A stretch of 64,000 nt of DNA from Cyanophora paradoxa CCMP329 (GCA_004431415.1 QPMI01000199.1:84460-148459); one strand, 5' to 3'. Numbered from the stretch's first letter, positions 13,641 through 58,310 are shown. Notes: generated by a model not told the origin, from the sequence alone. Numbers and translations: made by a program.

Positions 13641-13648
13641 GAATAAAC

Positions 13649-16242
13649 CTAAACTTCAACATCAGAATCATAATCTGATGCATCAGGATCAGCAGCAGGT
13701 AGGTCTTGTTTCATTCTTGGATTGGCTTCTTCCTCAATAGTCTCATCATCTACAAGCTTCATCTTTCTGAATTCCTCAAATACTTGTGGGAATAGGAAAT
13801 GATAGTATTGTTTGCCATTTGTAGTTTTCACTTGAATATATGTAACACTTCTCATTTCAGTATAATATCTGCGACTATTATAATCGTTTTTATATTTGTT
13901 GCTGGTAATGAACTCCTGGAACCACTTCCAGGTTTCCACAAGGCTACCAGACTTGCATTTATTCTCGGAAATTAAGCCTCGATCCACAAGCCACTTAGTG
14001 AACATAAGGATGATTGGAGCGCACACCTGTTGGGCTAAATAGTATTTATTTGTAAGGGGTCTATCAGCAATCCAGTTCACATCCTCACAGTCAACTTTGG
14101 TTCTCAAATAGTGGGCAATGTTTCGAATATTGCAGTGATCATTTAGCCATTTAACAAGTGGAAGGAAGTATGACCTATCCTTTGCGAATTTCTTACTAAC
14201 TTCAACAACCACAAATCGCCTATCTCCAGCTTCAATTTTCACTGGAATATTGTTATTGCTGGTGAATATAATCCTGGCAAAGTTGCTTTTTGTGTATGAA
14301 TCTATCCCTTTGTGTTCAATAACAATCTTATCAGAAGTAATGAGATCTTTAAGCATATCATTGTTTTCGAATGTGTCCTTGCCTGAGGCTTCATTGACAA
14401 CAATCAAGATCTTATCCTCTCTATTGTGGGCAAATCGACCAAACAGATCCTCTTTTGGCTTTCCAGTTGCATAACTCAGGGCATCTCCAAGTGTCTTCTT
14501 TTGGAAAGTATCGACCAACACATTCTTACCAGTTCCTTGTTCACCAATGAAGATTAAGGATACTCCATTGAGTTCCCCAGGCTTTTGCAGCATGTGGGCA
14601 AACCATTTCAACAGATATTCATAGGTATTTTGATCCTCACCAGACATTAAGAACAGGTGATCTAGGAAAGGCTTTATCATGTCAGCAGTAACATCTTCTG
14701 GAGCATTTTCGAATTGCTGGTGGTCAACCTTCATTCCTGGATAGAGATTAAATACAGACTTGCATTTGGCACTGAGAGTAGCAGGAGGTGGGAGGAAATC
14801 CATGTAAGTTGATCTTGTGGCTGTTGGATCCACAATCCATTTCCTAAATGATTGCTCCCATTTCTCTTTCTCATTATCTGTCCCCTCATTCACAATCACC
14901 TTATGCATCAAGTGGGGGAAATGCTTTGTAGAGAGCTTCCCAATATCTTTTGGCATCCAGCAAAGTAGTTGTTCATCCCAGAGCATCACACAACCAACAT
15001 TTTCAACATGATGCATTCGAGCATTGAAATACCTCTTATGCACATTGTAATGTTCAGCCAAAGGAGGGATACTTGCAGTCTTGTAATCGATTTCATCTGT
15101 GTCCTCTGGTAGGAATGCATACTTTTGGGGAAGAGTTCCTTGAAAAGCTCATTGTTATCTTTGCTCAACCAATAAACCAAGGATTTGAAGGTCAACACTT
15201 TGCCAGGCTCAGCCTTCTTCTTGCTTCTGCGAAGCTGTGTAAACTTCTCCTGGCATTCATCATAATCATACTTGTCACTCTGTTCTGAGAATTGGTGGAA
15301 GAGTTCAGCTTGCATTTTAGGGGTGAATTTGTTGTCTTCCCCAACATTGATGATGACCAGTCCAACATCAATCCAAGTCTTATACTCATTAGCTCTCTCA
15401 CCATTCAGACCCATTATAACACTTTGTAGCAGTTCGAAAGTAACAGGATTTTCGGGTTCAGTGTCTTTTTCAGCTTCTACCTTCTCAGTCTTCACTTTAT
15501 CACTTTTTGGCTCCTTTTTAACTGGTTTTGGCTCAGGGCTATAATTTGCGAATGCAGAAACATTCGATTCATCCACAAGTTTAGTAGTAGCTGAGAAGTA
15601 AGATACAAAGAAGTCCTCATTTCGCATTAACACTTTGTCACAGTCAACGAATTTCTTAAAGCAAACGTTTTTATCAACATCTTTTTTCGATTTATTTTGA
15701 GCATCCAGAGTCTCACCTTTGCAGCAATTGAGGCAGATAAGGTTCTGTGTGGAGCTGTAAACTCCACTGTCATAATCCTCATTTTTCACCAATCCCATAG
15801 CTTTGAAAAGCTTGGGGATATCTTCATGTTTGCATGCAAGCGATTTAATGATAAAGTGGGCTGAGATCTTGAACTTGGTGACATCCTCCTTGATCAAATA
15901 AACCCTTCTATGGCGAACTGCAACAGCAATATCGTTAATCGAAGTGGTCCCAGATCGCTTCCATAGCTTATCTCTCATCTCTCTTACAACAGTTTCCGCC
16001 TCAGCATAGTTTTCAGCAATGTTCTCCTTCAAATCAGCGAATTTATCCAGGTCCAGGTAAACTCTGGTGACTTGTTCAGGCTGAATGCATTCAGCCCAGG
16101 TCTTAACCTTGCTATTATCAATGGCTTCAAGGGCATCTTCGGCAGAATCAAATACATGGGTGACCTTGTTGCGATCACCAATGAGAGTACTAAGGAATGT
16201 AGCATTTTCAACAGGTGTGGCGAATTTCTCGATTTTGTTCAT
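13649..16242 (-). CDS. AEP primase - PriCT-2 - SF3 (D5-like) helicase; frameshift in an A run near 15122
   Basis: YLDLD, SAH, DSGVYS; EYKTWIDVG...FSEQSDKYD; GEQGTGKN, VVNEA, FTSN, DRRF. Confidence 0.9.
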
Positions 16243-16460
16243 ATTCGATTTTGGGGGACTTCTACCTTTAACGAAGAAAATAATTTCGGAAGGAGGAATT
16301 GTCTTTTATATATATCCTATTATTTGCCAAGTCCTTAAGTAGTTTTGGGTCGGGATACTGTCTCGATAAATAGATACAGTTTTAAAAAAGAGGGAAGAAA
16401 GCTGTCATTTTTTTGCCTCCGATCAAATCGATTTCTACAAAATTTGTTTCGATCGAGAAT

Positions 16461-24310: not shown

Positions 24311-24826
24311 GCTCGCATGCAGGTGAACCCCACTAATTCCCGCCGACCTATTTCAGTGAGCAAATATAAAACATCCTTTATTCTCAGTCACAAATTAATA
24401 AAATCGCTGTAATTCGCACTGAGCCACACTGTCTTTTATAAACCTCTCATGCATCCTTACTGAAACCAATCACGAAAACCTAAATTTCATCTTCTCTCCG
24501 ATCTCTTACCATTCTCAGTAAGCCCTAAACCCGTCCTCCGATCTCTCAGTAAGGCACAGTAAGACCCCATTATTACGAAATGTTCCCGATCGTTGCCGGA
24601 CTGTTTTCAGTAATCCAAAAAGAAAACACAGGTGAACCCCACCGAGAGAGTACGATGATAAGTACGAGATCGATTGAGTTCGCAAGTTTGTGCTGCCGAA
24701 AATGCCCACCTGCACAAACTTGCGCACCCCATCGACAAAGTACGATGATCGACGAAGTACGACGATAGACCACGATTAATTGCAACTGGAACCACTCGCG
24801 CCCCGCCCACTATGCAAGATACATGC
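24311..24826 (+). repeat. PLV-B left TIR (516 bp)
   Basis: Reverse complement of 48542-49057; no mismatch noticed. Confidence 0.96.
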
Positions 24827-32656: not shown

Positions 32657-34150
32657 ATGAAGACCTGCCTCGCTTTGAGTGGAGGGGGGTCGCGTGGAAT
32701 AATCGAGGCTGCTATACTGGCACAGATTGAAGCCCAAACCGGTAAACGAATCCAACAGCTATTCGACTGCTTTGCGGGAACATCCACAGGTGGATTAATC
32801 GCGCTCCTATTGAATATCAAGGGAACCGATGGCGCCCCTAAATATACTGCCACTGATATTCTTGCGCTCTACAAAGCGAAACTACCGCTGATTTTTGCGA
32901 ATCCACGAGTGCTTACATCGATTGTGCAACGCCCCAAGTATGAAGCAACGAATTTAGAAGCTGTGGCTCTGGAACTCTGCGGCTCAGCGACCATGGCGGA
33001 TCTCTACAAACCCACCATAGTAACTGCGTTCGACACGGTTCAAATGTCCCCCGTTTTTATTTCAAGCAACGATGAAGATATTAATGGGATGCTTGTGCGC
33101 GATGCTGCAAGGGCTACCTCGGCTGCTCCGACCTATTTCGAGCCGAAACAAGTCACAGTCGCCGGAAGAACATATTGTTTAATCGATGGTTGCATGAGCG
33201 GAAATAATTCGCCCGGGGTTTGTGGCTACACATTCGCCCGCACTTTATTCGGAAACTCTTGCGAGGAGGAGCTTATCGTGGTCTCGATTACGGCGGGTCA
33301 CGTCCAAGACTCTGATAAGGCGACATCTGGATATTCGTATGACACTATGAAAAATTGGGGGATCGTGCAATGGATGCTAAGCGCCACAGGATCGCCAATT
33401 CTCAGCATGTTCTTAGAGTCGAGCGATCTAAACGCCCACGTAAAGCTACTGGAACTTTTACCCAGAAACGATGATCAGAATTACGATCGCTACTATAAGC
33501 TGAGCGTTCCTTTACCGAAAGATAAAATGACCCTCGATACTATCACAACGACGCACCTGCAATATTTGGAAACGGAAGCGCTCGCGTTTGTTTCCGCACA
33601 GCAAACGTATTTTAATGCGATGTATTCAGTGCTGACGATGAATATCTCAGAGGGCGATGTTCCCATAATTAATCTGTCCGGGTGCACAGATGTAAGCGCA
33701 CCCCCGGAGTCTAACTGGGTGCCGCTCGATAATAGCGCCTTTATTGCGGAATTTGGCACAGCTTCTGATGCCCGCTGGTCAAATGCTACGGGATGGGTGG
33801 GATTTACAAACCCGCCGCAAGGTAGTAGGTCGGGAGGCAATTATTTACGCATTGATTTTCCGCGTCTGTTTATGCTTTCCTCTATAAAAATGAAGCCGGC
33901 TGCGAATGGAAACTACATTAAAACGTTTGAGATCGATTACCAATTAACTCCGGGAGTGTCGGCACTTGTCACATACACAGAAGCCGGCGCGACGAGAGTG
34001 TTTACAAATGCAAATCAAATAGCCGGAAGTGCTGATCCCGACGAACATTTCTTAGCAAACCCGAGATCTGTGAGAACCCTCGTAATCTGGGTGCTCTCGA
34101 CGAACGTAGCTTCGGCATGCCGAATAGATTTCGAGGGCTACTACGTGTGA
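32657..34150 (+). CDS. Patatin-like phospholipase plus discoidin domain
   Basis: SGGGSRG, GTSTG, ATSAAPTYF, IDG; orthologue of 22458-24014. Confidence 0.92.
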   Translation: MKTCLALSGGGSRGIIEAAILAQIEAQTGKRIQQLFDCFAGTSTGGLIALLLNIKGTDGAPKYTATDILALYKAKLPLIFANPRVLTSIVQRPKYEATNLEAVALELCGSATMADLYKPTIVTAFDTVQMSPVFISSNDEDINGMLVRDAARATSAAPTYFEPKQVTVAGRTYCLIDGCMSGNNSPGVCGYTFARTLFGNSCEEELIVVSITAGHVQDSDKATSGYSYDTMKNWGIVQWMLSATGSPILSMFLESSDLNAHVKLLELLPRNDDQNYDRYYKLSVPLPKDKMTLDTITTTHLQYLETEALAFVSAQQTYFNAMYSVLTMNISEGDVPIINLSGCTDVSAPPESNWVPLDNSAFIAEFGTASDARWSNATGWVGFTNPPQGSRSGGNYLRIDFPRLFMLSSIKMKPAANGNYIKTFEIDYQLTPGVSALVTYTEAGATRVFTNANQIAGSADPDEHFLANPRSVRTLVIWVLSTNVASACRIDFEGYYV

Positions 34151-34157
34151 ACAGCGC

Positions 34158-35003
34158 TTAGTCGGTAATCACTTCCAGCTGGAACGAGAATGAGAGACCG
34201 TTTATATCCGCAACAGAGCCCCGCCATTTTCGAAGCGAAATTGTGAGACGATCTAAATCGAGTTGCGATGTGACATTTACGAAAGGGATGCTTGCGCTCG
34301 GTTCGTGGTAAAAGGAATATCTACCAAAGTCCGAGTTCATCTGAATTCGCAATAGATAGGAGTCGTCGACATTGTTCAGTCTACCTGTAACCGCTGCGAA
34401 TTTGGTAAAAGGGCGGAGCTCTTCGATATCAAGGTAAATATATGGAATTGCATTAAAGTCGACCATTTTCGGGCATATAATCGCGTAGCGACTGGGGTAA
34501 TCTCTGAGTGGAACCGGCACTGGTTCTGGTGTGCTGGTGTAAACCACTCCGGGTTCTATGCCGAGACAATCACAGAACTCCTGGTCTGAGGACTCTAATG
34601 TAAACGGGCTATTCGGAGAAGAGAACACGAACCGGTTGGTAGACAGAGCGAGAGAATAGGAAACGGGGAAGAGACCGAGAGGATTAAAAGAACCGCCTGA
34701 AAAACCGAGTAAAGCATCACTGTTTAAAGCTCTCTCTTTCGGATATCGTTCGTTATCAGCATCGACGTAATAATAATCGTTTACGCTGGGAATCGGTGCT
34801 ATCATTTTGGATGCGGGGATTACTGTGGGCTCTTCGTTCAAAAGCGTTATAGTTATTGTCTGATCGGGCGGAACAACATAAGAGCTATTGGGAATCTCAG
34901 CTGATAGCACACGAAATCGCCTTACATTATTAAGGCGCGTTTTCAAGTGCAGCACGCCGTTTTCAAGGTCTCTACTGTCGCAATTTATTGTTATTCTTTT
35001 CAT
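34158..35003 (-). CDS. Minor capsid protein 2 orthologue
   Basis: NCDSRD, SAEIPNS, DINGLSFSFQLEV. Confidence 0.75.
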   Translation of the reverse strand: MKRITINCDSRDLENGVLHLKTRLNNVRRFRVLSAEIPNSSYVVPPDQTITITLLNEEPTVIPASKMIAPIPSVNDYYYVDADNERYPKERALNSDALLGFSGGSFNPLGLFPVSYSLALSTNRFVFSSPNSPFTLESSDQEFCDCLGIEPGVVYTSTPEPVPVPLRDYPSRYAIICPKMVDFNAIPYIYLDIEELRPFTKFAAVTGRLNNVDDSYLLRIQMNSDFGRYSFYHEPSASIPFVNVTSQLDLDRLTISLRKWRGSVADINGLSFSFQLEVITD

Positions 35004-35019
35004 AATCTATTATAGTAAG

Positions 35020-35945
35020 ATGAAAGAATACCTGAGCTTTTCGAGCGATGATCGCGATGAGGAGTTTACTCAGCCAAACCAGTATGTAGTGACATTACCC
35101 CGTCGCTATGACAACGTAAAATCGGTGCGCCTGGTGCAGGCAACGGTTCCCAATGTTCTTTCGACCGTGACAAACGATATAGACGCCACTGGTGCAACCA
35201 TCGAGCGCATGGAACTCTATTTCTCGGTCACAGCTTCGGATTCCGGATTCGTGACCATCACAATCCCAAAGGATTTTACACCAAAGACGACCTTGCCGCA
35301 AAAGTCACAGAAAGACTCGAAGCAGCTCGCCTTTCAGATTTCGGTGGAAAATATATTAAATGCCGCTATAATACTACTTCAAAGATCTATGAGTTTTTCA
35401 GTGATAGTAACTTTTGGTTCAAGTTCTCCAAAGCTTCCCCTGAAACACTCAGAAAATCCAGTAATCGCAAAGCAATCGCTAAGAAACTCGCAATATTCGG
35501 TTTCAAAGATATTCAACTATATGTTTACGAGACATTTACCCCTCTTGCAAGCGATACATTCCTTGTGTTTAATCCTGGGACGGGAACTGTGACACTCAAT
35601 CGACGCATTCGCGGCTATACTCGTGGAGATGAGACCCCGGCGGCGATGATCTGGCTATATATTGACGAATTTGCGCCGTTTATTCGCTCAGTCAACAAGC
35701 ACGTCGATGGTTATTTCATGCGCATTCCAATCCCACAGGAACTCGAACATGGTGATATCTACCACTTCGACACGTCCACTACGGTGCCTCTCATTCGTGA
35801 ATTCCGCGAATTAAAATCGTTCGACCGCTTGACGATTAAACTCATCGACCATGATGGCGCTCTCTTAGATTTCGGGGTTTGGGCGCATTATTTCACTTTT
35901 GAAATCGAAACCTACGACGCACCGCCCGAAATGAATTTCTACTAA
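35020..35945 (+). CDS. Minor capsid protein 1 orthologue; frameshift near 35268
   Basis: SSDDRD...LPRRYDNVKSVRLVQATVPN; continues IPKGFYTKDDL in the other frame; LDFG..YFTFEI. Confidence 0.7.
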
Positions 35946-35992
35946 GCCCTTTAAATTATTTTCTGATCCCAAAGATAAGAGAAGAAACGCTC

Positions 35993-37306
35993 ATGGAGAC
36001 TAACAGCCAATTCCAGCGCCCAACGCTGAAATCTATGCTCACCACCGATGACTACAAGGATTATTTCCTAAACAAGTCGCTGGTCATTGGAACGTCCTCT
36101 GGCACTAAGCCACTTCGAGTTCTGGTCGCCCCCGATACCGAACCAACCAATGCCCTCGGTAACCGAGTAGTTTTCAAGATCCCCCGCTACCATTTCCTGA
36201 ATGGTCTCGCGCTGCAACTCGACCTTAACCCGATCACCCTCACTGATCTCACGAATGGTGTCGCTGGAACTACTGGCTACCTTCGCGTTATTGGATCGTT
36301 AATTAAGCGCATTGAAATCTCTCACGCTTCATTCCGCTATGTTGTCCCGGAAGATTTCGTCACCCAGTATTTTCTACTGATGACTGAACAGGGCGAACTC
36401 GATAAGAAACTTCGCTATGTGGGTGGTCTTGTCGGAACCGCTGGTAACACTGTCGGTGGAACCTACGAAATCGATTTACCCTCTCCTTTCGAGAAGGCGA
36501 TGTTCCCACTTTGCGCTCTGAACTCTGAGATCACAGTAGAAATCGAATTCAAGGCGCAAGGGGATGGTATCATTGAGGATGTAAACAATGTTGCTAATAT
36601 TGCGGTAACCAACAATGGCGCTTCCCTTCAAGTGCTGAAACCCCGCGTTATTTGCAAGGTCGTAAATGCCGATGAGGCGGTTGTATCTGAGACCATTGCC
36701 CGTGTTAAATCGACTGGCATCGCGATCCCCTACAACGAAATCGGTTTCCTACACACAGATTTCCAGCCGACCGCCTCCGGTTCGCGAGTCAATCTCTCGC
36801 AACTCACAGGTGCGGGTCTCATCCACACTCTCGTATTCTCTGTGCGCCAAAACGCGAAGACGAAGGTGAACAATGGAACTCTCTCGGTTCTGGCTCCTCG
36901 TGCGCTCAGAACCAACGCCGTAAGCTTCTATGTGGAACTCAACAATAACCGCCTTTACTCGAATACTTCGCTTCCTCTCATGATTGCCGCGACCGAACTT
37001 CAAGATAAATATAATTCGGCGATCTTTACCGAGAGCACAAGCTACCCCGCTCTCACTGGCATTTACTTCGGTGCTGGAAACGGAAAGGCGTCGCTTCTCA
37101 ACCAAGAGAACACGGGCTACATCGATGCCACAGGCACATCGGCGTTCGATCTGGTCTTCGAATTCAACGGTGTCACAACGGCAGCCGAAGGTTCATCAGA
37201 ATGGTATGCGGGTGCCGCTTATCAGAAGATGCAAATTCAGTGCATTGCCCTTGCTCATAACATAATGATAATTGGTGCCGACGGAATCAGGCGTGTAAGT
37301 AGCTAA
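35993..37306 (+). CDS. Major capsid protein (probable double jelly roll)
   Basis: GNRVVFKIPRY; colinear homologue of 19075-20442. Confidence 0.8.
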   Translation: METNSQFQRPTLKSMLTTDDYKDYFLNKSLVIGTSSGTKPLRVLVAPDTEPTNALGNRVVFKIPRYHFLNGLALQLDLNPITLTDLTNGVAGTTGYLRVIGSLIKRIEISHASFRYVVPEDFVTQYFLLMTEQGELDKKLRYVGGLVGTAGNTVGGTYEIDLPSPFEKAMFPLCALNSEITVEIEFKAQGDGIIEDVNNVANIAVTNNGASLQVLKPRVICKVVNADEAVVSETIARVKSTGIAIPYNEIGFLHTDFQPTASGSRVNLSQLTGAGLIHTLVFSVRQNAKTKVNNGTLSVLAPRALRTNAVSFYVELNNNRLYSNTSLPLMIAATELQDKYNSAIFTESTSYPALTGIYFGAGNGKASLLNQENTGYIDATGTSAFDLVFEFNGVTTAAEGSSEWYAGAAYQKMQIQCIALAHNIMIIGADGIRRVSS

Positions 37307-37364
37307 GGAATTCGTGCGATTACCACATTCAGTCTTATTTTTCTATTGTTTTTATAGTGAAAGA

Positions 37365-38231
37365 ATGCAAAAAGGGACGACGCCCATAGATCTTGAAGAA
37401 TGGAACCCGAAACAGAGGGTGAAACTTCCCGCACGATTTCTCCTATTGGCGAAAACCAATTGTGGTAAATCGGTATTCTTAAAGTGGCTGATCAAAGAAC
37501 TCGAAGACCAGATCTCATACGTTCTGGTCTTTTGTCCAACGAGTTTCAACGGTTTCTGGGGACAAATTACAGACGAAGTGCATGACACCTGGAAACCGGA
37601 ATATGTAGAGTCGATCATAGAAGCCCGCAAAAAAGCCATCATTGCGGGTAAGAAACCAAAGAATATTCTCATTGTGCTCGACGATTGTTTGGAGTCCGGA
37701 ACGATCGATCTTTCGCGCGATCATTTGCTAAATAAATTGATGGCGCAAGGTCGTCATACTTTTTGCAGCGTGGCTTTAATATCGCAGAAACTAACAAAGC
37801 TTTCAACGATCATTCGCAGCAATGCGGAGTATATCATATTCCTAAGCTGGTCAAACATGCGAGAGTTTGAAGCATATCACGAAGAGTTCGGGAACATGGA
37901 TAAAGAGAGTTTTAAGCGCATGTTCCAAGAATTCTGTCATAGCTACCAAGCGATCATTCACGATAATACGGGGTATTCTGTGCGATGGTGGGTCGAAAAA
38001 GCCGATATGATCGATGACCATCCGTTTACTAAATTCCACAAGCGGGCGGCTTTTGAAGAAAAGAAGCGCAAACAGCAAGAGGAGCAAGCATCAAAACCGC
38101 CGCCTGTCAAAGATTCGACAACTGTATGCAAAACTTTATCCAAATTTGAGCGTGAGCTTGAAGGTATCCCCAAACTTTCGCAAATTTCGCCCAAGAAAAA
38201 GAAAATGTTAATCAAGTGTAAGAAAAGATAA
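37365..38231 (+). CDS. A32-type packaging ATPase
   Basis: AKTNCGKS, IVLDD, QGRH, ISQ, IRSN. Confidence 0.92.
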   Translation: MQKGTTPIDLEEWNPKQRVKLPARFLLLAKTNCGKSVFLKWLIKELEDQISYVLVFCPTSFNGFWGQITDEVHDTWKPEYVESIIEARKKAIIAGKKPKNILIVLDDCLESGTIDLSRDHLLNKLMAQGRHTFCSVALISQKLTKLSTIIRSNAEYIIFLSWSNMREFEAYHEEFGNMDKESFKRMFQEFCHSYQAIIHDNTGYSVRWWVEKADMIDDHPFTKFHKRAAFEEKKRKQQEEQASKPPPVKDSTTVCKTLSKFERELEGIPKLSQISPKKKKMLIKCKKR

Positions 38232-38233
38232 TC

Positions 38234-38917
38234 ATGGTCTACCGAAAGAAGCCTCAAACCATTCAAACGGTCGCTTCTGGTAATCCTAATCGCGGACTTG
38301 AAGAGTCTGGATTAACGTCGGGCGGCGGTCTCGAAATGCCCGAATATCTTATAGACACTTCGCCAGAAGAGGTCGCCAAGCAAGAGGCGATTATTGCGAG
38401 TGCCACCGCGGACAAGGGAAACCAAGATAGCGGTAAACGCCAAATGGACGATTTAGCTACTGTAAAACCACAGATTGGAGGCGGCTCCATCGATGAAGCA
38501 ACCGACAAAGTACTAAAAGCGCAAGTTGTCGCAAGCCAGCACAAAACGCAAGACGTCCCAAAAGCCGCCGAAACTGAGCTTAAAAAGCGCGGATCCTATC
38601 AAAAACACACGGTTCCTGTCGACGTTGTCATGAGCTTTGAAGAGAAAGTGCGAGACCTTGAAATGAAAGTGTCAAACTACGAGAAATGGATGCAAGATTA
38701 TAACGAACGCAAGAAATTAAAGGGGCTCGTGAAGAAAGAGATCTCCAAACTCGGATTAAAGCAAAAGGTCGACGTAGAGGAGATTAAAAAGGAGGAAAAG
38801 ACAGATGCGCAAGCCGTAACGCGTCAGCAATCGGTCGCCCCGCAATATGCACATATAGTGCCGACTGCACCAGCGAATTTCGCGGCAATGCTCGGTGGTA
38901 AACGCCATATCCGCTAA
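38234..38917 (+). CDS. Hypothetical Lys-rich coiled-coil protein
   Basis: Homologue of 17464-18198. Confidence 0.7.
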   Translation: MVYRKKPQTIQTVASGNPNRGLEESGLTSGGGLEMPEYLIDTSPEEVAKQEAIIASATADKGNQDSGKRQMDDLATVKPQIGGGSIDEATDKVLKAQVVASQHKTQDVPKAAETELKKRGSYQKHTVPVDVVMSFEEKVRDLEMKVSNYEKWMQDYNERKKLKGLVKKEISKLGLKQKVDVEEIKKEEKTDAQAVTRQQSVAPQYAHIVPTAPANFAAMLGGKRHIR

Positions 38918-39121
38918 TGGCTGTGAATATCCGCAAGGCAAAGCTGAACCCGCCCGTATTTAGAGCGTGTCTTAATGTGAATGCCCTTGCAAAACGGGCA
39001 CGTCGGCTCCATAAACAGCATTATAAGGTCGACCAACTCATAAGGAAACACACGAGCAAGCAATAGCCTCATTCCCTTTTATTTTCTCACATATTTAATA
39101 CGTTGTCCAATTGTAGGATTG

Positions 39122-39511
39122 ATGAATTTCATCACACAATGCATTGAGATGTTTCAGCTTCATGTCGTGTCTAATTGTCACAGTCCCTGCTGCGATACAA
39201 CCGTGGAGGTTGACATATCTGATGGCGAAGAGAATGGAGATAGGCGCCTTTCTGTTATTTCGACCACTCACACGAACACCCCCACAAGATCACGAAGAGG
39301 GTCACCTGCGCCACCTCACACTAACACCCCTCCAAAATCACGAAGAGGGTCGCCTGCCCCGGTAGCTGCCCAAATAGAGGATGTGCATATAGAGTTTATA
39401 AGGAGGCGCTTATATCCTCACATAGTAAATGGTCATTTTCGCGCTGACTCGCCATTGCCAACATTGGAGCGAATGGCATCAGAAAGCGATGAAGAATGGA
39501 AAGGATATTAA
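39122..39511 (+). CDS. Small protein with HVVSNCHSxCC motif and duplicated HTNTP.xSRRGSPAP
   Basis: Homologue of 17169-17441. Confidence 0.75.
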   Translation: MNFITQCIEMFQLHVVSNCHSPCCDTTVEVDISDGEENGDRRLSVISTTHTNTPTRSRRGSPAPPHTNTPPKSRRGSPAPVAAQIEDVHIEFIRRRLYPHIVNGHFRADSPLPTLERMASESDEEWKGY

Positions 39512-39627
39512 TTTTTGTGGTGCTGTTATCGCTCCGAGCGCAAAAATTGAAGGTTTCGGTAAAAGGTATATAAGGGCAAGGGAAATAATACAGAGTGACA
39601 AAAAACTATTTTCTCCGGTTATAGTAA

Positions 39628-40041
39628 ATGGCGAAACCCAAGATTTCAAACCAAGAGGCAATGGCGGCACAGCAGGAAAAGCGCAGACCCGGGCGACCGA
39701 AAAAGGTGATTTCAGAAGAGGAGAAGGCGGAGAGATTAAGATTAAAACGCGAGAAAGATGCCGAGCGGCAGCGAAACAAGCATCAGAGACAGAAACAGGA
39801 GCGATTAGCCGCCGGAGAGGCTACGATATTCACCCCGGAGCAGCTACAAAAGATTGCAATTCGTAAACAGCAGCGATACCAAGACGATGAAGAGTATCGG
39901 GAGAAAATCCGAGAGAAGGCACGTGAATACCAACGCAGAAAGAGAGCGGAACGCAAGCTGAACCCACCCGCTAAACCTCAGCCGCAAAAGCCAGCTGGAA
40001 GACCCCGAAAGCATGTGGTCGAGAACGCGAAAAATTCGTAG
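39628..40041 (+). CDS. Basic protein with two AT-hook-like motifs
   Basis: RRPGRPKK, GRPRK; homologue of 16461-16787. Confidence 0.78.
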   Translation: MAKPKISNQEAMAAQQEKRRPGRPKKVISEEEKAERLRLKREKDAERQRNKHQRQKQERLAAGEATIFTPEQLQKIAIRKQQRYQDDEEYREKIREKAREYQRRKRAERKLNPPAKPQPQKPAGRPRKHVVENAKNS

Positions 40042-40210
40042 CGAAAAGTACCGTACGATGCAAAAAATGATTAATTTTTTTACCTCCCTTTTTATTCCCC
40101 GTATCGTTCAAAAAAGCACTTAAAGAATTGGCGACAAGGGTATGAAAAGGAGAATTTGGTAGATTGCGCCGAAATTATTTTCTCCGGTTATTTTAAAAGA
40201 ACTAATAGAG

Positions 40211-43200
40211 ATGCCGCGCGCAACCAACAGAATCGCTAACAATGTTCGGGATGAAATTATCGGATACATTATGCAGGGATTGAGTCAGGATTTGCTAACC
40301 GAAGAACAGGCGCATTGGGCGATGCACAACACAATGAATCGGAAGCCCAAGCTCCAAACGCTGATCGACATTCGGGACACTCTGAAAGGCATCATTAATC
40401 CCCGCGTTTTCCGCAGGGCAGAGCGGAAAGAGAAGCGCGCCGCTCGCACCCAAGTTAATATAGAAAAGCAAAAGCAAAAAGAACAAGAGGCGAAGCGTTT
40501 ACAGCGCTTCGATCGCAAACAAGAACAGAAACGGGCGAAAGAAGCGAAGCTCCAAGCGAAGCAATTCAAAGGACAGCTAAAAGCGGTAGAGGATGCGATT
40601 AAACGCACTATTCTCGATCCAATCGCCCAATATGATCCGGAAACTCTCGCAACAATTACGTTCAAGATGTGGGCACCTGGATCCGGTGCTCGGTCGTCGG
40701 AGGTAATTGTTATTCCCGGAATTCCCGGAACATATATAAAAGACAAAACCTTTGTCACCTACCAGAATATAAGAGAGACAGTTTCGGTGAGGGTGTTGCG
40801 AAACTTTGCTCTGGCAAAGATCGATAGAGTGTATGGAATTCTCACCGCTCAAAATCGTTATTATTCGGAAGAGAGAGATTCAATCTTCGATTTACTCGAA
40901 AACTACGATGAATTGAAGATTGGTCTGGGAACTTTCGGACAAGCATACGAGATGTTCTTCTTTAAGACACCACCAACCGAGGAACAGAAAAAACTACGCA
41001 AAGGTTTCGATGATTTTGGCGGCAGTGTCGATGATGCCTTTATAACTGTTCATGAGGTCGTGATCTATGGGGACGAAGGTGTCGAAGATGACGGAGCCGG
41101 TGCTATACCTGGAAATCGCTATGCGTTTCTGGATGAGGAGCTAATGGACAGTATGCGATGCACCGCGATTATGAGCAAATTCACAGACTACACATTAAAT
41201 CCAAACGCGTCTGAGTTCGAAGATGTTATTGAGCTTCCCAAATCATCGACATCTAACGCTTGCGGCTACGATATGATCATCTCCACATGGGGAGCGTCCA
41301 TTAAGAAGTGTCAGGAGGCGCCAAAACCGCGATATACTGACTTAACTATGTCGTACGACGGTCTCTATAAATTCTTTCACGGTCGTGAACGCACACCTGA
41401 CGACTCTCTGGCTCTCACCCTCCGCCATATCGAGAAATTCTGTAAGAGAATTCAGACAGGCTTCCGCGTCTTTGATGTCGACGGAAAGTTAATATACAAA
41501 TTCGCGGCAGAATCAATTAACAAAAATATCAATCCCCGTAATATTCACTTTATGATTCACAACAAGCACATCTATATATTCAACGATAACATCAAGTCGC
41601 TCGAAATGCGCATGGCAAAGATGGAGGTCGAAGAGCTCGATAATCATGTTCCTAAGTCGAACTCTTCGTTAGCACTCTATAAAATTCCGACGTGTCTTAC
41701 TCACGATATCTTCGCGCACACATCCAAGGATCTGTTAAAGATCACGCAATTAAAACTATCGCCTGACGAGCGCAGTTTCATCCGCATTCTTTATACTGGG
41801 CGCGAAGGTCTGGAAGGTCTTCTATTTACGTTCCTGAAAATGCGATATGAGCCCGCAGTGAAGCTAACACCATCGAAACAGATCGACAGCATCACATTCA
41901 AAGCTAATGGCTCGATGTTCTCTATCAAAGATCCACGCACAACCGACCACTTTATTGAGCAAGATTTCGAAACAGAGGAGTATTATAATAAGGTCTGTGA
42001 AATCGGGAAGGGATTCCGGGAGTCGCTACTGAATACCACGAATATCTCACATTACAGCCCGAACATGCGCGAAATTCTCACGCACTACAAGCGATCCGCA
42101 CTAAGCGGCTTTTTCTATAAGCCGAACCCGAAAGCTACCTACACAGCTGTCGATATGGCGAAGTGCTACCCTTCGATACTGAAAGGCATGCAATATCTTC
42201 CGAAATACAATGTATTCGATGACTTCGTTCCCTTTAAAGCGGGAAGCGATATTCTCGAATACGCGATCTACTACGTGCGTGTCGTTGCGTTTGAGAGAGA
42301 GCAAGCGACTTTCGCCGATGATGAGGATGTAGATTATGATGCCGCCATGTCTCGCAAGATCGACGGAATCGAAATAATTCTGGATCGCGCATTTTCCGTG
42401 AGTGGTCGATGCTACAATTTCATCACAGGCTACACTCTCTCCATGCATTGGGCGGACGTAAAGGACAAGATAGAGATTATTGCGGTCGCGGAGCCTTCGC
42501 ATTTGGTGCCCAATACGTCGATCTCCGAGATGAAGAAAGTACTTTCAAGTGACATTCAAACCACGGACAAGAAGCACATTTTAGTGAAAGAGATCGGAAT
42601 GCTCGGCAAATTCCAAGACTCGCAAACATCCACGAAAATGTTCTACAACCGTGCCGAGGCTGAGAGGTTCGCCCAAGAATGCGGAGGAACAGTAGAGGTG
42701 TTTACTTTCAATCCTAAGAATTCGAAACGTGTCAAAACTCTTAGCGAATTCGAAGGTCACATCTATTTCGTTAAGATCAGCTCCCACCGCGAGCTCGTTA
42801 ACGGATTCCTTCCTATCCACTTTCATATTTACGATCGCAACCGTGCCAATATGTTTGCGCAATACAAGCGCCTGACAGCGCGCGGGCACAAGGTTGCCGG
42901 GATCAGAACGGATTGCCTATATATCGAAGGTTCATGGACAAGTAAGAAAGAGTTCGACCGAAATGCGTTTGAGAACATGGGCAAATTCAGCTATATTCCC
43001 GGGAAAAGATGCCCTGAGAATGCACTCCGCCCACCACGGGGTGTAACTCTCGAATTTCAGGATCCCGAGACACTCATTAACCGGTTCTCGCTGAGGGACG
43101 AATTTAATCCGGAGTGCTTTAATTGGGTTGCGAAGCTCCATAATCGTATGCGTGTCCTTGCTGACATGCCCGGAAGTGGAAAGTCGACACTCGGTATTAA

Positions 43201-44521
43201 CTGTTTCGCATCTCAAAAGTCGAATTGCTTAGTTATTTGCCCCTATAACAAACAGTGCGCGGAGCTGAGGGACTCTCTCAAAGTCCGCGGAATCGAGAAT
43301 ATTACCGTTCGTACTTTATATAATGTTCTCGGGATCCGTGTCTCAAATGATCAGACCTACGAAGAGGCTATGAGCGAAAAAGACCAGAGGGCGTTCGTCT
43401 CCGAGTTCAGCCACATTATGTTCGACGAGATATTCGCGTATTCCGTAAAAGATCTCGCTAAGATTAAGTCGTTTATTGATCGCTATCCGGATATCAAATA
43501 TTTGGCTAATGGCGATACCTATCAGAACGAACCAATTAATGACGAGCTCTCGGTTTCTGATCGCAAGGGCTACTATAAGCGCGCTGTGCAGAGCATGTTC
43601 CCTAATGTCCTGAGTCTACGCATTAACAAGCGGCACAAGAAGGAGACAGACCGTGAATTAATTCGGGCGATTAAAGAGGATCTCTTCGAAAACGGACTGG
43701 AAGCCGCACAGATCATTTCAAAATACGGTTTGCCGACAATTAATGATCTAAACGCTATTCCCGACGGCTACTTCGGCATCGCTTACAGAAACGAAATGAC
43801 CTTAGCCTATAACAAACTGATGCACGATAGACGGAAAGTAAATATTGCAACCGTAGAGGTCAATGGCATCAAATTCTACAAAGGTTTGGAAGTCGTTTGT
43901 CGCAGGTATCTACGCATTTCGCGGTCTGAGGGTGAGTCTATTAACGCATACACAAATTACACCTATCGGATCACCAAAATCACCAAGCAAATGGTCACAT
44001 TAACTGACGTCTTCGATGGCGTCACGTTCGAGGTTCCGTGCGCGATGTTAGAACATTTTTCTCTCCCTTATGCAGGAACAGGTCATTCAACGCAAGGTCT
44101 CACACTTGATTCGGGCATTGTCATTTGTGAGGCTACGTTCCGCTATACCACTCGCGAATGGTTCTATACCGCGCTCACTCGTAACCGCGATCTGTCTACG
44201 GTGCTGATTTATACACCTATTCACAAGTTCCAAGGAAAGAGCGACTACATCGAATATCTGAAAACGAAGATCCGCGGTTATAAATGCCAGGATCAGCGTG
44301 CCGGTCGCGATTTCAACGAGGCGGATTATATTACGCCGGAGTGGATATTAGAGCGCAAGAAGCAACAGAAGGGCGCCTGTGCGCTCTGTTCCCTTCCGAT
44401 TCCGATTGAGCCGCAAGATCCGAATTACAGGCTCGTCGTGGATCGCATCAATAATAAGCGCCCACACCTTAAAGACAATTGTCAACTCGCGCATCACGGG
44501 TGCAATTGCAGCAAAAAATAA
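40211..44521 (+). CDS. Divergent PolB-like polymerase - SF1 (RecD/Pif1-like) helicase - HNH fusion
   Basis: DMAKCYPS, KHIL..EIGMLGK, IRTDC; PGSGKS, FDE, GDTYQ, HSTQGLTLD, YTALTR; CALC...DRINN..H..DNC. Confidence 0.85.
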   Translation: MPRATNRIANNVRDEIIGYIMQGLSQDLLTEEQAHWAMHNTMNRKPKLQTLIDIRDTLKGIINPRVFRRAERKEKRAARTQVNIEKQKQKEQEAKRLQRFDRKQEQKRAKEAKLQAKQFKGQLKAVEDAIKRTILDPIAQYDPETLATITFKMWAPGSGARSSEVIVIPGIPGTYIKDKTFVTYQNIRETVSVRVLRNFALAKIDRVYGILTAQNRYYSEERDSIFDLLENYDELKIGLGTFGQAYEMFFFKTPPTEEQKKLRKGFDDFGGSVDDAFITVHEVVIYGDEGVEDDGAGAIPGNRYAFLDEELMDSMRCTAIMSKFTDYTLNPNASEFEDVIELPKSSTSNACGYDMIISTWGASIKKCQEAPKPRYTDLTMSYDGLYKFFHGRERTPDDSLALTLRHIEKFCKRIQTGFRVFDVDGKLIYKFAAESINKNINPRNIHFMIHNKHIYIFNDNIKSLEMRMAKMEVEELDNHVPKSNSSLALYKIPTCLTHDIFAHTSKDLLKITQLKLSPDERSFIRILYTGREGLEGLLFTFLKMRYEPAVKLTPSKQIDSITFKANGSMFSIKDPRTTDHFIEQDFETEEYYNKVCEIGKGFRESLLNTTNISHYSPNMREILTHYKRSALSGFFYKPNPKATYTAVDMAKCYPSILKGMQYLPKYNVFDDFVPFKAGSDILEYAIYYVRVVAFEREQATFADDEDVDYDAAMSRKIDGIEIILDRAFSVSGRCYNFITGYTLSMHWADVKDKIEIIAVAEPSHLVPNTSISEMKKVLSSDIQTTDKKHILVKEIGMLGKFQDSQTSTKMFYNRAEAERFAQECGGTVEVFTFNPKNSKRVKTLSEFEGHIYFVKISSHRELVNGFLPIHFHIYDRNRANMFAQYKRLTARGHKVAGIRTDCLYIEGSWTSKKEFDRNAFENMGKFSYIPGKRCPENALRPPRGVTLEFQDPETLINRFSLRDEFNPECFNWVAKLHNRMRVLADMPGSGKSTLGINCFASQKSNCLVICPYNKQCAELRDSLKVRGIENITVRTLYNVLGIRVSNDQTYEEAMSEKDQRAFVSEFSHIMFDEIFAYSVKDLAKIKSFIDRYPDIKYLANGDTYQNEPINDELSVSDRKGYYKRAVQSMFPNVLSLRINKRHKKETDRELIRAIKEDLFENGLEAAQIISKYGLPTINDLNAIPDGYFGIAYRNEMTLAYNKLMHDRRKVNIATVEVNGIKFYKGLEVVCRRYLRISRSEGESINAYTNYTYRITKITKQMVTLTDVFDGVTFEVPCAMLEHFSLPYAGTGHSTQGLTLDSGIVICEATFRYTTREWFYTALTRNRDLSTVLIYTPIHKFQGKSDYIEYLKTKIRGYKCQDQRAGRDFNEADYITPEWILERKKQQKGACALCSLPIPIEPQDPNYRLVVDRINNKRPHLKDNCQLAHHGCNCSKK

Positions 44522-44540: not shown

Positions 44541-45922
44541 ATGTCACGGATCGTTAGAAGGGTAGCGGGAGAGGAGACAGAGACCACCATACTACCTATC
44601 GCGGTTCCTGAAACTGAGCTAATCCCCAAAAAATCACAAAACGCCAAGCAAAATCAAATTTATTAGGAGATGTTCCTTTTAGCATTGCTAACCCGTCCTC
44701 TAAGATCGTGCGACGCATGTATGACCCGAAGACAGGTTTTAAGAACCCATCGGCATTGTACGAAGAGCTGAGAAAAGAGGACAAGAGCCTCACATTGAAA
44801 GAAGTGCAAGATGTCGCAGCGAAACAAGAATTTATGCAGATCAACAAGAAGCCCCCCGCACCGACCCAAACCGCTTTTATTCCCATCACAGCCCCGCCGT
44901 GGTGCTACCAAGCAGATCTCATCTTTTATCTCTCATATGGCAATTATAATTCCGGCTACATTGCAGTCCTTACTCTCATTGAGATGACGAGCCGAAAATC
45001 GTATGCCAAGAAATTAAAGAATAAAGAGGGCGCGAGTGTTGCTACCGCTTTTGCGGAGATGCTTACAGAGCTCCCCGCTCCAATGAAGCGTTTAGAGACA
45101 GATAACGGCTCAGAATTCATCGCAAAGGAGTTTCAGGAGATCGTTAAAAATAACGGAATAGAACACCGCTTTAAACAGGTCGGAGATCACACTTCGCTGG
45201 GAATTATGAATCGCTTTCATTTGACCCTAAAAACGATGATAAACAATTACTGTGTCGCCTATAATACAGTGCGGTTTATGGATAAATTGGACGACTTCGT
45301 TTTCAATTACAATAACACCATTCACAGAACCATAGGAATGAAACCGGGGGATGTAAAGCTCTCAGATATGGAGCAGATCCGAGCGGCTATTATTTCGAGA
45401 AAGAACACAATCGTAAAGGATATATTCAGCGACTTTAAGCCGGGTCTCCACGTCCGCCTATTATTGCCGAGATCGAAGTTCGATAAAGGCGCGACCCAAA
45501 GGTATAGCAGAGAGGTCTACAAAATAGTGGGAAGGAGGGGAAACGCAATAGAGGTGCAAGATGCAGCCGGATACCTCATGCCGAAGCTATTTAAGCCGCA
45601 CGAATTGCAGATTATTACAGAGGTCGAGGCAGTGGTCGAGCCCGCAGAAAATGCAATTAAAGCAGCCGAGATAGAGGCAGCCTCTATTCGGCAGGTTCAA
45701 AAAGAAGGCATAGATGTCGCCGCAAGTGTTCCGAAAGGCGATCTATTGGAAGATCGCGCGGAGAAGACTAAGAGGGCGCTTAGAGAGCTCGCGAAATTAA
45801 CGATTGCCGGCACTGAGAAGCTCTCAGAGGTAAACAGTCAGCGGTGGTATAAATCATTCAAGAATCAGAGCGCAAGCTATACAGCCCCTACTACGCGCAT
45901 TCTTCGGTCATCTCGTTCATAA
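44541..45922 (+). CDS. rve integrase (DD35N); frameshift near 44625
   Basis: YQADL, ETDNGSEF, LGIMNRFH, YNNTIHRTIGMKP; the N-terminus MSRIVRR at 44541 matches the PLV-A integrase. Confidence 0.9.
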
Positions 45923-45961
45923 CAAACCCCGAAATTATTTTCTCCGGTAAATATAAAAGAG

Positions 45962-48541: not shown

Positions 48542-49057
48542 GCATGTATCTTGCATAGTGGGCGGGGCGCGAGTGGTTCCAGTTGCAATTAATCGTGGTC
48601 TATCGTCGTACTTCGTCGATCATCGTACTTTGTCGATGGGGTGCGCAAGTTTGTGCAGGTGGGCATTTTCGGCAGCACAAACTTGCGAACTCAATCGATC
48701 TCGTACTTATCATCGTACTCTCTCGGTGGGGTTCACCTGTGTTTTCTTTTTGGATTACTGAAAACAGTCCGGCAACGATCGGGAACATTTCGTAATAATG
48801 GGGTCTTACTGTGCCTTACTGAGAGATCGGAGGACGGGTTTAGGGCTTACTGAGAATGGTAAGAGATCGGAGAGAAGATGAAATTTAGGTTTTCGTGATT
48901 GGTTTCAGTAAGGATGCATGAGAGGTTTATAAAAGACAGTGTGGCTCAGTGCGAATTACAGCGATTTTATTAATTTGTGACTGAGAATAAAGGATGTTTT
49001 ATATTTGCTCACTGAAATAGGTCGGCGGGAATTAGTGGGGTTCACCTGCATGCGAGC
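48542..49057 (-). repeat. PLV-B right TIR
   Basis: Inverted copy of 24311-24826. Confidence 0.96.
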
Positions 49058-57830: not shown

Positions 57831-58310
57831 AGCATCTCCCCTAGATTCCCCCTATTATATAATATTTATATTACAGTGGACTCAAGGTTGACTCATATTA
57901 ATCGTAAAAGTAGTAAAAGTATATGGATTTTGTTACGAATTCAATGCAAGGGTTGACTAAGTGGGTTGAGTTGACTCAAATTTCACAGGAAATATTTGGG
58001 GCCTAAAGTTTTCTAAAAAGGATTTCAAAAAATGTGTCAACTCCCCCCATTTAGTCAACCCTGACCATAAACAGTAAGCATTTGAGCTAACATGTATCAC
58101 AAAGTGAACATTTTGAGTCCACTTAGAAGATCCACTTTTGAAATCCAAGTTGATTTTGCTTGAAATTTCAAAGTTGATCTAAAAGTGAGTCCACCCTGAT
58201 TGATAATGGTAACAAAGTTGACTAAGTTGACTAAGTTGACTAAGTTGAGTCATCTTAAGAAATTCAAGGAAACTAAGAGTTCAAAATGTTTATGAAAAGT
58301 GAGTCAACTT
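57831..58310 (-). repeat. PLV-A right TIR
   Basis: Inverted copy of 6466-6945. Confidence 0.95.

What the first reader, a model, noticed from the sequence alone, without database searches (positions are those of the whole stretch)
40211..44521. Single-chain PolB-SF1 helicase-HNH replicase occupies the slot of pPolB and shares its N-terminal module
Seen: degenerate PolB motifs (DMAKCYPS; K...IGMLGK; RTDC instead of DTDS), a full SF1 helicase motif set and a C-terminal HNH. The first ~55 aa (MPRATNRI...EIIG...LTEEQ...RKPKLQTL) resemble those of the PLV-A pPolB (MPRITNKL...ELMG...ITEAE...GRPTLARL), and both genes lie directly upstream of integrase. Inference: in-place replacement of the replicase behind a retained N-terminal domain (terminal-protein, packaging or localisation role), with TIRs replaced in parallel.
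Basis: partly seen in the sequence, partly recalled or inferred. Interest (0 to 1): 0.75.

Follow-up and report, generated by a model that had tools for sequence, protein, structure and literature searches.

The report
Viral replicase swapped behind shared cap
A virus integrated inside a related virus carries a one-piece polymerase-helicase of an already described family, and its first 60 residues match those of the neighbour's very different polymerase, so the enzyme body was likely exchanged behind a kept three-helix cap that may tether it to the rest of the virus.

Summary
The 1436-residue ORF is real and belongs to a known, large family: Tlr1-like pPolB-S1H fusions (Krupovic 2016, 2024; 1143 clusters). 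The scan met this family before on other DNA (e1-7145383). Its modelled middle folds like phi29 polymerase (Z 15.2), with an OTU protease, an exonuclease remnant, an SF1B helicase and an HNH-type end. It lies in a polinton-like virus nested in a collinear sibling and fills the slot where the sibling has primase, SF3 helicase, RING, GIY-YIG and pPolB. The N-terminal likeness is weak pairwise (E 0.68). An independent pPolB, P0152, fetched by its palm alone, confirms it (16 of 60 identical, 0 of 20,000 shuffles, E 9e-4). The cap is a predicted three-helix bundle, closer to these two pPolBs than to 126 relatives of its own body, so cap and body likely have different histories. Parallel TIR replacement is unsupported and cap function is untested. 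Replicase swaps are published; a backbone-tracking cap was not found in four searches.

The parts
40211..44521 (+). Inner replicase ORF, 1436 aa: three-helix cap, long helix, terminal-protein-position domain, vOTU, exonuclease remnant, pPolB palm, SF1B helicase, HNH-type domain
40211..40396 (+). Three-helix cap, residues 1-62, homologous to the N-termini of the outer pPolB and P0152
   Evidence: model helices 2-25, 31-42, 48-62, block pLDDT 84-97; homology
40400..40612 (+). Long basic helix, residues 64-134 (net charge +15), predicted spacer
40646..41068 (+). Alpha/beta domain, residues 146-286, in the position of the terminal protein; identity as terminal protein inferred from position only
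   Evidence: family profile built without the query matches residues 85-340 at E 2.2e-10; block pLDDT 50-77; fold search did not reach it
41168..41596 (+). vOTU cysteine protease domain, residues 320-462, C351 and H453
   Evidence: both invariant in 126 of 126; OTU structures Z up to 6.2 on this stretch
41696..42028 (+). Exonuclease-fold remnant, residues 496-606, no invariant carboxylate
   Evidence: alignment to phi29 polymerase starts at its residue 5; best acidic column 94 of 126 D or E
42029..43030 (+). pPolB polymerisation domain, residues 607-940; D648, Y653, K788, G796, K800, D901; Val at the motif B Asn (792), Arg at the first motif C Asp (899)
43103..44245 (+). SF1B (Pif1/RecD/Dda-like) helicase, residues 965-1345, all motifs present
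44246..44518 (+). HNH-type zinc-binding domain, residues 1346-1436; one family Cys is His here (1428)
   Evidence: family profile hits PacI at E 0.013; relative P0062 hits PF01844 at E 0.002; no Pfam hit for this piece alone
40169..40186 (+). 18-nt promoter-like motif 42 nt before the replicase start
   Evidence: 3 matches in the window, 0.02 expected
16272..16289 (-). Same motif 47 nt before the first gene of the outer replication slot (primase-like ORF)
45929..45946 (+). Third copy of the motif, before the DUF5710 ORF
44717..45922 (+). Inner rve integrase, directly downstream of the replicase
   Evidence: PF00665 E 6e-14; C-terminal tail shared with the outer integrase and not with three other loci
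24311..24826 (.). Inner left TIR, 516 nt, preceded by one copy of a 6-nt target-site duplication (24305-24310)
48542..49057 (.). Inner right TIR, 100% complementary, followed by the second copy of the duplication (49058-49063)
32657..40041 (+). Inner backbone collinear with outer 16461-24014: patatin, two probable minor capsid genes, probable major capsid gene (35993-37306; capsid labels inferred, not tested), A32 ATPase (37365-38231), three small genes
   Evidence: 29-51% identity
9198..12443 (-). Outer pPolB, 1081 aa, polinton type, with endonuclease VII insert and lost exonuclease motifs
   Evidence: PF03175 E 1.2e-12, PF02945 E 9e-4
12258..12443 (-). Outer three-helix cap, residues 1-62
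   Evidence: SHOCT 20.7 bits, below the cut-off of 27
12505..16242 (-). Rest of the outer replication slot: primase-like ORF with PriCT-2 (14986-16242), DUF5906 P-loop ORF read as SF3 helicase (13649-15061; reading of DUF5906 recalled), RING (12982-13467, +), GIY-YIG (12505-12855)
7808..9194 (-). Outer integrase, in two ORFs, directly downstream of pPolB
6466..6945 (.). Outer left TIR, 480 nt; no convincing target-site duplication
57831..58310 (.). Outer right TIR

Best explanation
The ORF is a Tlr1-like pPolB-S1H replicase, predicted to prime and copy the linear viral genome while unwinding it, and its 60-residue three-helix cap is homologous to the cap of the sibling virus's pPolB, likely because one lineage exchanged the enzyme body behind a cap that stayed with the capsid-integrase backbone. 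Shown: domain order, motif conservation, palm and OTU folds on the model, nested collinear genomes, cap homology. Inferred from the family model of Krupovic 2024: the domain at 146-286 primes at the genome ends; the vOTU (C351/H453) cuts the chain, leaving cap, spacer helix and priming domain on the 5' ends; the palm extends without proofreading; the SF1B helicase unwinds 5' to 3'. One chain thus does the work of the sibling's pPolB, SF3 helicase and nuclease genes. Inferred here: the cap has no catalytic residue and would act as a tether that presents the genome end or the enzyme to a backbone partner (packaging ATPase, integrase or capsid), which would explain why it follows the backbone. 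The exchange is old. Its direction is open, about 60:40 that the pPolB body is the newcomer.
For: Family: 1143 clusters at E<=0.001, 126 of 151 fetched proteins at least 1150 aa long, catalytic columns invariant. Fold: all 9 PDB matches at E<=0.001 are phi29 polymerase (best 5.5e-8); mavirus pPolB 5.9e-9; Z 15.2, rmsd 4.8, 363 aligned, next 8.2. Helicase profile hits RecD, Dda and Pif1 structures. Slot: orthologous genes on both sides; the same 18-nt motif opens the slot in both elements. Cap: P0152 was fetched with outer residues 600-1081 only, yet matches the inner cap at 16 of 60, 0 of 20,000 shuffles, whole-protein BLASTP E 8.7e-4. A profile of the two pPolB caps finds the inner protein first among non-seeds in 596 sequences (E 0.022, 10.1 bits against 3.0); hhalign gives 76.8% over 61 columns. 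The inner cap's best matches are P0152 (58) and outer (41), ahead of all 126 own relatives (40 or less). Likeness stops near residue 60. Cap identity (14-19 of 61-62) lies at the low end of backbone divergence (29-51%), and third-position GC matches each host element.
Against: Pairwise BLASTP inner against outer is E 0.68. The cap is a generic three-helix bundle whose best structural matches are designed mini-proteins. The link to the wider S1H cap family is weak: hmmsearch and hhalign with the 23-member profile do not separate either cap from reversed decoys, a profile from the nearest clade misses all three caps, and the cap tree is unresolved (1 of 22 branches starred). Only three sequences carry this cap subtype, and the gene neighbourhood of P0152 is unknown. 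The outer cap leads the best own relative by one point only (41 against 40). The motif B Asn is Val here (Asn in 113 of 126), so polymerase activity is less sure. Terminal-protein identity of 146-286 was not shown. Replicase-integrase adjacency is general (3 of 4 informative loci) and is no evidence for the swap. Most relatives work without a detectable cap (103 of 126).
Confidence: 0.55

Rival explanations
1. Plain common descent. The cap was on the ancestral pPolB from which pPolB-S1H fusions arose, both lines kept it here and there, and whole genes, not bodies, were exchanged in the slot.
For: A similar cap occurs in 23 of 126 S1H relatives on several branches and weakly in a second pPolB, P0153. 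The three-cap profile aligns to the S1H cap profile at 62.7% over 54 columns. Krupovic 2016 and 2024 derive the fusions from pPolB.
Against: The inner cap is closer to two pPolB caps than to any of 126 own relatives, while vOTU and palm of the same two proteins barely align (2.4% and 0.1%). The three caps share a near-neutral charge (+1 to +3) against +5 to +11 in 22 of the 23 S1H caps.
Confidence: 0.2
2. The swap is real but the cap is a passenger. The crossover fell about 60 codons into the gene, or the cap was grafted between co-resident viruses, and it does nothing backbone-specific (generic DNA-binding, stability or expression tag).
For: N-termini of these replicases are interchangeable: 23 of 126 three-helix, 7 of 126 with another short motif and no overlap; the label needs 9 changes on a 40-row tree. 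Nesting gives the chance to recombine.
Against: The cap is kept at 23-31% identity in three lineages with the same length and register, similar to backbone genes. No DNA likeness remains, so a recent graft is excluded.
Confidence: 0.2
3. The palm is catalytically dead and serves as a scaffold; the protein works as helicase and end-binding protein with a host or helper-virus polymerase (the 2016 reading of the family).
For: First motif C Asp is Arg, motif B Asn is Val and the motif B Tyr is absent. PMC5499653 argued for inactivation.
Against: D648 and D901 are invariant in 126 of 126 and K788 in 124. The Val is shared by 7 relatives that all lie in the nearest clade, so it is no private decay. 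PMC11161782 notes active PolBs that lack the same Asp and predicts activity. The inner element has no other polymerase.
Confidence: 0.2
4. The N-terminal likeness is chance or convergence of amphipathic helices.
For: E 0.68 pairwise; generic fold; reversed decoys equal the scores.
Against: Out-of-sample match to P0152 over the full 60 residues in the same register. The two replicases rank 1 and 2 of 52 window ORFs against an independent profile, at the same offset.
Confidence: 0.05

Closest known systems
Tlr1-like helicases / pPolB-S1H fusion replicases of polinton-like viruses, Tlr1 and transpovirons (PMC5499653; PMC11161782)
   Same: Size, order (variable N-terminal domain, terminal-protein-position domain, vOTU with Cys and His, palm lacking the first motif C Asp, SF1B helicase, HNH-type end); linear element with TIRs.
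   Different: The N-terminal domain, described there as highly variable and without known fold, is here a predicted three-helix bundle shared with a polinton-type pPolB of a sibling virus. An exonuclease-fold remnant of about 110 residues lies between vOTU and palm. Motif B Asn is Val.
Polinton pPolB (TP-vOTU-EXO-PALM) and mavirus pPolB (TP-vOTU-exo remnant-PALM with separate SF3 helicase), PMC11161782
   Same: Priming-domain position, vOTU and palm; the outer element is of this kind, with dead exonuclease motifs and a separate helicase gene.
   Different: The inner protein has the helicase and nuclease domains fused, and its body does not align by sequence with the outer pPolB.
Replication-module mosaicism in Polisuviricotina (bioRxiv 10.64898/2026.10.13.758929; 10.64898/2026.06.19.733378)
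   Same: Same morphogenetic module with different replicases, tandem integration, PolB-DDE linkage, switches between pPolB and polB-SF1 fusions.
   Different: Those texts report whole-gene swaps and polymerase/helicase domain swaps. A non-catalytic N-terminal cap that stays with the backbone was not in the parts read.
OmPLV Helicase SF1-pPolB fusion of Oxyrrhis marina (PMC12721341)
   Same: About 1,500 aa, SF1 helicase and pPolB in one chain.
   Different: Opposite order (helicase first), full exonuclease, no vOTU, tyrosine recombinase instead of rve integrase.
SHOCT domain (PF09851)
   Same: Short helical hairpin pattern in the outer cap, residues 20-36.
   Different: Below the curated cut-off; no hit in the inner cap or in P0152; N-terminal and three helices long.

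Membership tests
Tlr1-like / pPolB-S1H replicase | One ORF of about 1,000-1,400 aa with an SF1B helicase in the C-terminal part | tested here: met
   1436 aa; motifs I-VI conserved; profile hits RecD E 4e-13, Dda 7e-10, Pif1 2.5e-6
Tlr1-like / pPolB-S1H replicase | Palm of the protein-primed family B type upstream of the helicase | tested here: met
   phi29 polymerase E 5.5e-8, Z 15.2 against 8.2 for the best other PolB
Tlr1-like / pPolB-S1H replicase | TPR1 and TPR2 subdomains delineated | not tested
   Tools give only first and last aligned residue
Tlr1-like / pPolB-S1H replicase | Motifs A and B kept, first Asp of motif C lost | tested here: met
   D648, Y653, K788, G796, K800, T900, D901 kept; R899; motif B Asn is Val as in 7 of 126 relatives
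Tlr1-like / pPolB-S1H replicase | vOTU with catalytic Cys and His before the palm | tested here: met
   C351 and H453 in 126 of 126; OTU folds Z up to 6.2, rmsd 2.8, 99 aligned
Tlr1-like / pPolB-S1H replicase | No active proofreading exonuclease | tested here: met
   Fold remnant without invariant carboxylate
Tlr1-like / pPolB-S1H replicase | Alpha/beta terminal-protein-like domain before the vOTU | tested here: inconclusive
   Alpha/beta domain present and family-conserved, low confidence model, not reached by fold search
Tlr1-like / pPolB-S1H replicase | C-terminal HNH or GIY-YIG domain | tested here: met
   Zinc ligands, His and Asn conserved; PacI E 0.013
Tlr1-like / pPolB-S1H replicase | Polymerase, priming, protease and helicase activity | not testable with these tools
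   Needs purified protein
Canonical polinton pPolB | Exonuclease motifs, intact DTD motif, no fused helicase | tested here: not met
   no PF03175 hit for the inner protein
OmPLV SF1-pPolB fusion | Helicase N-terminal to a full exonuclease-polymerase | tested here: not met
   Order is palm then helicase
SHOCT (PF09851), for the cap | Pfam gathering score 27 bits | tested here: not met
   Outer 20.7 bits, inner none, P0152 none
Endogenous polinton-like virus (inner element) | TIRs, target-site duplication, A32 ATPase, integrase | tested here: met
Endogenous polinton-like virus (inner element) | Double jelly-roll major capsid protein and its clade | not tested
   No Pfam hit; label inferred from size and position; no fold made

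The most novel reading that the evidence does not exclude
The three-helix cap is a lineage-specific docking tag that stays on the genome ends after vOTU cleavage and couples whichever replicase body is fused behind it to the resident packaging or integration machine. It would be the adaptor that lets these viruses change replicase class without changing capsid, and this nested pair would be a natural experiment on it.
Probability: 0.15. Interest if true: 0.7.

Novelty: new member of a known kind. Interest (0 to 1): 0.38.

Why it matters
The enzyme type and replicase swapping are both in print, so the headline is ordinary. What is added is a concrete case at sub-gene resolution. Two sibling viruses in one host share gene order, the motif that opens the replication slot and a 60-residue N-terminal cap, yet carry replicase bodies from distant lineages. 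That gives a first structural guess and a family link for the unexplained N-terminal domain of pPolB-S1H proteins. It also gives a testable candidate for the adaptor proposed to couple PolB replicases to end-processing machinery. The intact, high-copy gene is a usable substrate for the open question whether Tlr1-like palms are active polymerases.

Tried and rejected
No whole genome is held, so other copies could not be read in context. The word-index search with the inner protein gave 1 hit among 5664 candidates; with the whole outer pPolB, none among 7997. Collection scans for elements with this backbone found nothing: inner replicase, probable major capsid and ATPase. The pPolB scan gave one unrelated locus without the cap. 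The direction of the swap therefore has no outgroup. A two-sequence profile of inner and outer caps found nothing significant in 151 proteins; the three-cap profile found no further member in 596 sequences. The 23-member S1H cap profile failed with hmmsearch and hhalign; the nearest-clade profile failed too; the cap tree is unresolved. Alignment A5 was misanchored and dropped. The fold search of residues 1-480 was filled by helices and did not test the middle domain. A complex prediction of cap with integrase gave no verdict. Read coverage of the outer element was not obtained. No RNA holder was listed; this says nothing on expression. No Rfam match in the window. Rejected: cap equals terminal protein; cap equals SHOCT; a recent DNA-level graft; TIR difference as a sign of parallel replacement; integrase adjacency as evidence of the swap. 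Searches for a prior description of the cap gave 0 papers or only papers on the known family.
Full report
Setting. The window holds two nested elements. The outer has 480-nt inverted repeats at 6466-6945 and 57831-58310; the inner has 516-nt repeats at 24311-24826 and 48542-49057. The inner is flanked by a 6-nt target-site duplication and sits in an outer ORF that starts at 24058. Both have an A32 ATPase, a patatin and an rve integrase (Pfam for the inner copies; orthology). Eight orthologous pairs are 29-51% identical, and the backbone pairs from patatin to the last small gene keep the same order. Capsid labels are inferred from size and position and were not tested. The host is not identified: no genome is held, the left flank looks like an LTR retrotransposon, and 20 of 24 listed runs, from 18 studies of one coded organism, hold at least half of the sampled words. 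In the three holder runs laid (two guessed DNA, one of unstated kind), all 30 bins of 33000-50000 are covered by many variant contigs. None of the 12 listed indel rows lies in the replicase ORF; 18 rows were not shown.

The slot. Between the last small backbone gene and the integrase the inner element has one ORF, 40211-44521. The outer has five: a PriCT-2 primase-like ORF, a DUF5906 P-loop ORF (read as SF3 helicase from recall), a RING gene, a GIY-YIG gene and pPolB. An 18-nt motif occurs three times in the window against 0.02 expected. It lies 42 nt before the inner replicase, 47 nt before the first gene of the outer slot, and before one more inner gene. The two integrases share a C-terminal tail that three other integrases lack or only partly have, so the integrase stayed with the backbone. 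Replicase directly or nearly upstream of integrase is general: it holds in 3 of 4 informative loci.

The enzyme. Residues 201-1400 found 1143 clusters at E<=0.001 and 321 at E<=1e-30; 126 of the 151 proteins fetched are at least 1150 aa. In these 126, C351, H453, D648, G796, D901, K991, E1073, Q1105, R1141, Q1295 and R1324 are invariant, and position 899 is Asp in only 2. A model of residues 304-960 from 56 sequences (pLDDT 86.9, pTM 0.85) matches phi29 polymerase best: all 9 PDB hits at E<=0.001, and Z 15.2, rmsd 4.8, 363 residues against 8.2 for the next polymerase. It also matches mavirus pPolB at 5.9e-9. Residues 320-461 match OTU proteases at Z up to 6.2. The phi29 alignment begins at phi29 residue 5 and protein residue 496. 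Taking the phi29 exonuclease as about residues 5-189 (recalled), at least 54 aligned residues fall in it, so 496-606 is an exonuclease-fold remnant; it has no invariant carboxylate. The helicase profile hits RecD, Dda and Pif1 structures. This is the Tlr1-like / pPolB-S1H family. PMC5499653 (parts 1-4 of 5 read) describes palm, SF1B helicase and HNH end, and reads the palm as inactive. PMC11161782 (parts 2-4 of 6 read) adds the terminal-protein position and the vOTU, predicts an active polymerase despite the lost Asp, and calls the N-terminal domains highly variable and unlike known structures. One departure here is Val for the motif B Asn (Asn in 113 of 126). The 7 relatives with Val all lie in the 10-row clade next to the inner protein in a 40-row tree (14 rows chosen plus the first 26 others).

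The cap: tests for. Anchored at Met1, inner and outer share 12 of 51 residues; 0 of 20,000 shuffles reach the score, and the pair ranks 3 of 1326. The closest relative of the outer pPolB, P0152, was fetched with residues 600-1081 only (49% identical) and is its sister in a palm tree (support 1.0). Its N-terminus matches the inner cap at 16 of 60, 0 of 20,000 shuffles, BLASTP E 8.7e-4 for whole proteins. A profile of the two pPolB caps ranks the inner protein first among non-seeds in 596 sequences, half of them reversed decoys (10.1 bits, next 3.0), and hhalign gives 76.8% over 61 columns. Among the first 110 residues of 246 fetched proteins and the outer pPolB, the inner cap's best matches are P0152 (58) and outer (41); its own relatives score 40 or less. 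Likeness ends near residue 60. A model of residues 1-480 from 57 sequences shows three helices (2-25, 31-42, 48-62; block pLDDT 84-97), a 70-residue helix, a low-confidence alpha/beta domain and the vOTU.

The cap: tests against. Unanchored BLASTP of inner against outer gives E 0.68. The bundle is generic; its best matches are designed proteins at Z 8-9, within the range that the tool calls common for helical bundles. A cap family built only from relatives holds 23 of 126 proteins. It does not detect the window caps by hmmsearch or hhalign (1-2%, equal to reversed decoys), although the homologous vOTU and palm score no better against the outer protein (2.4% and 0.1%). A fixed-register version ranks inner and outer 1 and 2 of 52 window ORFs at the same offset, with 0 and 3 of 607 natural decoys as high. 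Their scores (1.9 and -1.3) are far below most members (9-36 for 19 of 23), and 1 and 7 of 178 reversed decoys reach them. A profile from the nearest clade misses all three caps, and the cap tree is unresolved. So the three caps are homologous to each other with good support, and to the wider S1H caps with moderate support (62.7%).

History. The caps are 14-19 of 61-62 identical, at the low end of the backbone range. They have no DNA likeness and their third-position GC is like that of their own element (0.62 and 0.37). The bodies come from distant lineages: the outer palm is 33-39% identical to 119 other pPolBs and does not align with the inner palm. The simplest reading is an old exchange of the body behind a cap that stayed with the backbone. 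Direction needs an outgroup, which the scans did not give. A cap of this kind is seen in 23 of 126 S1H fusions, including 4 of the 10 nearest, but in at most 2 of 120 pPolBs (P0152 clearly, P0153 weakly; 82 of the 120 are at least 1000 aa and the sample is biased to other lineages). The TIRs share nothing longer than 19 nt at 79%, but the two elements share almost no DNA anywhere, so parallel replacement cannot be inferred.

Mechanism. Shown: domains, folds on models, conservation and layout. Inferred from the family model: priming by the 146-286 domain, vOTU cleavage, synthesis without proofreading, 5'-3' unwinding. The outer pPolB and P0152 have also lost the exonuclease motifs and the outer has a separate helicase gene, which fits the exonuclease-for-helicase trade proposed in PMC11161782. 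Inferred here: if cleavage falls between priming domain and vOTU, the cap stays on the genome ends at the tip of a long helix, where it could be bound by a backbone protein. No binding was shown. The HNH-type domain has Arg where HNH nucleases have the catalytic His (R1412, 111 of 126; His role recalled), so cutting is not established.

What is known. Replicase exchange on a shared morphogenetic module, tandem integration and a PolB-DDE link through the genome ends are described in bioRxiv 10.64898/2026.10.13.758929 (parts 1-4 of 5 read). Switches between pPolB and polB-SF1 are described in 10.64898/2026.06.19.733378 (passages read). PMC13215967 (passages) reports many such fusions in eukaryote genomes; PMC12220804 (passages) reports S1H replicases in cryptophyte elements; PMC12721341 (parts 1, 3, 4 of 7) describes a fusion of opposite order. 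Four searches found no description of a cap shared between pPolB and pPolB-S1H. No supplement was opened; the figures and supplements of PMC11161782 and of the two preprints may bear on this.

Verdict. Observation confirmed, interpretation partly supported. The enzyme is a new member of a known kind; the backbone-tracking cap is a real but small addition with untested function. Interest 0.38.

Noticed in passing
16272-16289 (-), 40169-40186 (+), 45929-45946 (+): An 18-nt motif shared by the two elements before the first replication gene, and before the DUF5710 ORF; likely an early-promoter element. 3 matches, 0.02 expected.
   Followed up: partly
9198-12443 (-): The outer pPolB and P0152 have lost all three exonuclease motifs that the 13 other pPolBs aligned mostly keep: an exonuclease loss inside the polinton-type lineage, paired with a separate helicase gene.
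   Followed up: partly
44717-45922 (+): In the inner integrase the position of the third carboxylate aligns with Asn where three other integrases have Glu, although the element has a clean target-site duplication and many copies.
   Followed up: no
24311-49057 within 6466-58310: A whole polinton-like virus is inserted in a gene of a sibling virus; a loose contig end in two of the runs laid carries the same flanking sequence.
   Followed up: partly
7808-9194, 13649-16242, 35020-35945: Outer integrase, outer primase/helicase and one inner probable minor capsid gene are each in two ORFs; decay, programmed frameshift or assembly error cannot be told apart here.
   Followed up: no
47700-48491 (-): D12-class adenine methyltransferase next to the right TIR; contigs in three runs join across it, so some copies lack it.
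   Followed up: no
46302-46694 (-) and 57219-57617 (+): Both elements carry an S-adenosylmethionine decarboxylase-like gene (PF02675 E 1.4e-11 for the inner copy; 48% identical).
   Followed up: no
47202-47489: Seven copies of a 32-nt unit in the inner element near the right end.
   Followed up: no
13455-13573: Copies of a motif from the outer TIR lie inside the outer replication slot, between the RING and helicase genes.
   Followed up: no
27287-28849 (-), 51865-54843 (+): Fibre-like genes with repeats; H-type lectin end in the inner, peptidase S74 chaperone end in the outer.
   Followed up: no
58353-64000: Right flank is a tandem array of about 1.55-1.7 kb units with 149-nt sub-repeats; no Rfam match.
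   Followed up: partly
L002:443-15843: A Maverick-like backbone (protease-like and integrase genes read by eye) carries a capped pPolB-S1H (P0002), so this replicase also rides another capsid lineage.
   Followed up: partly
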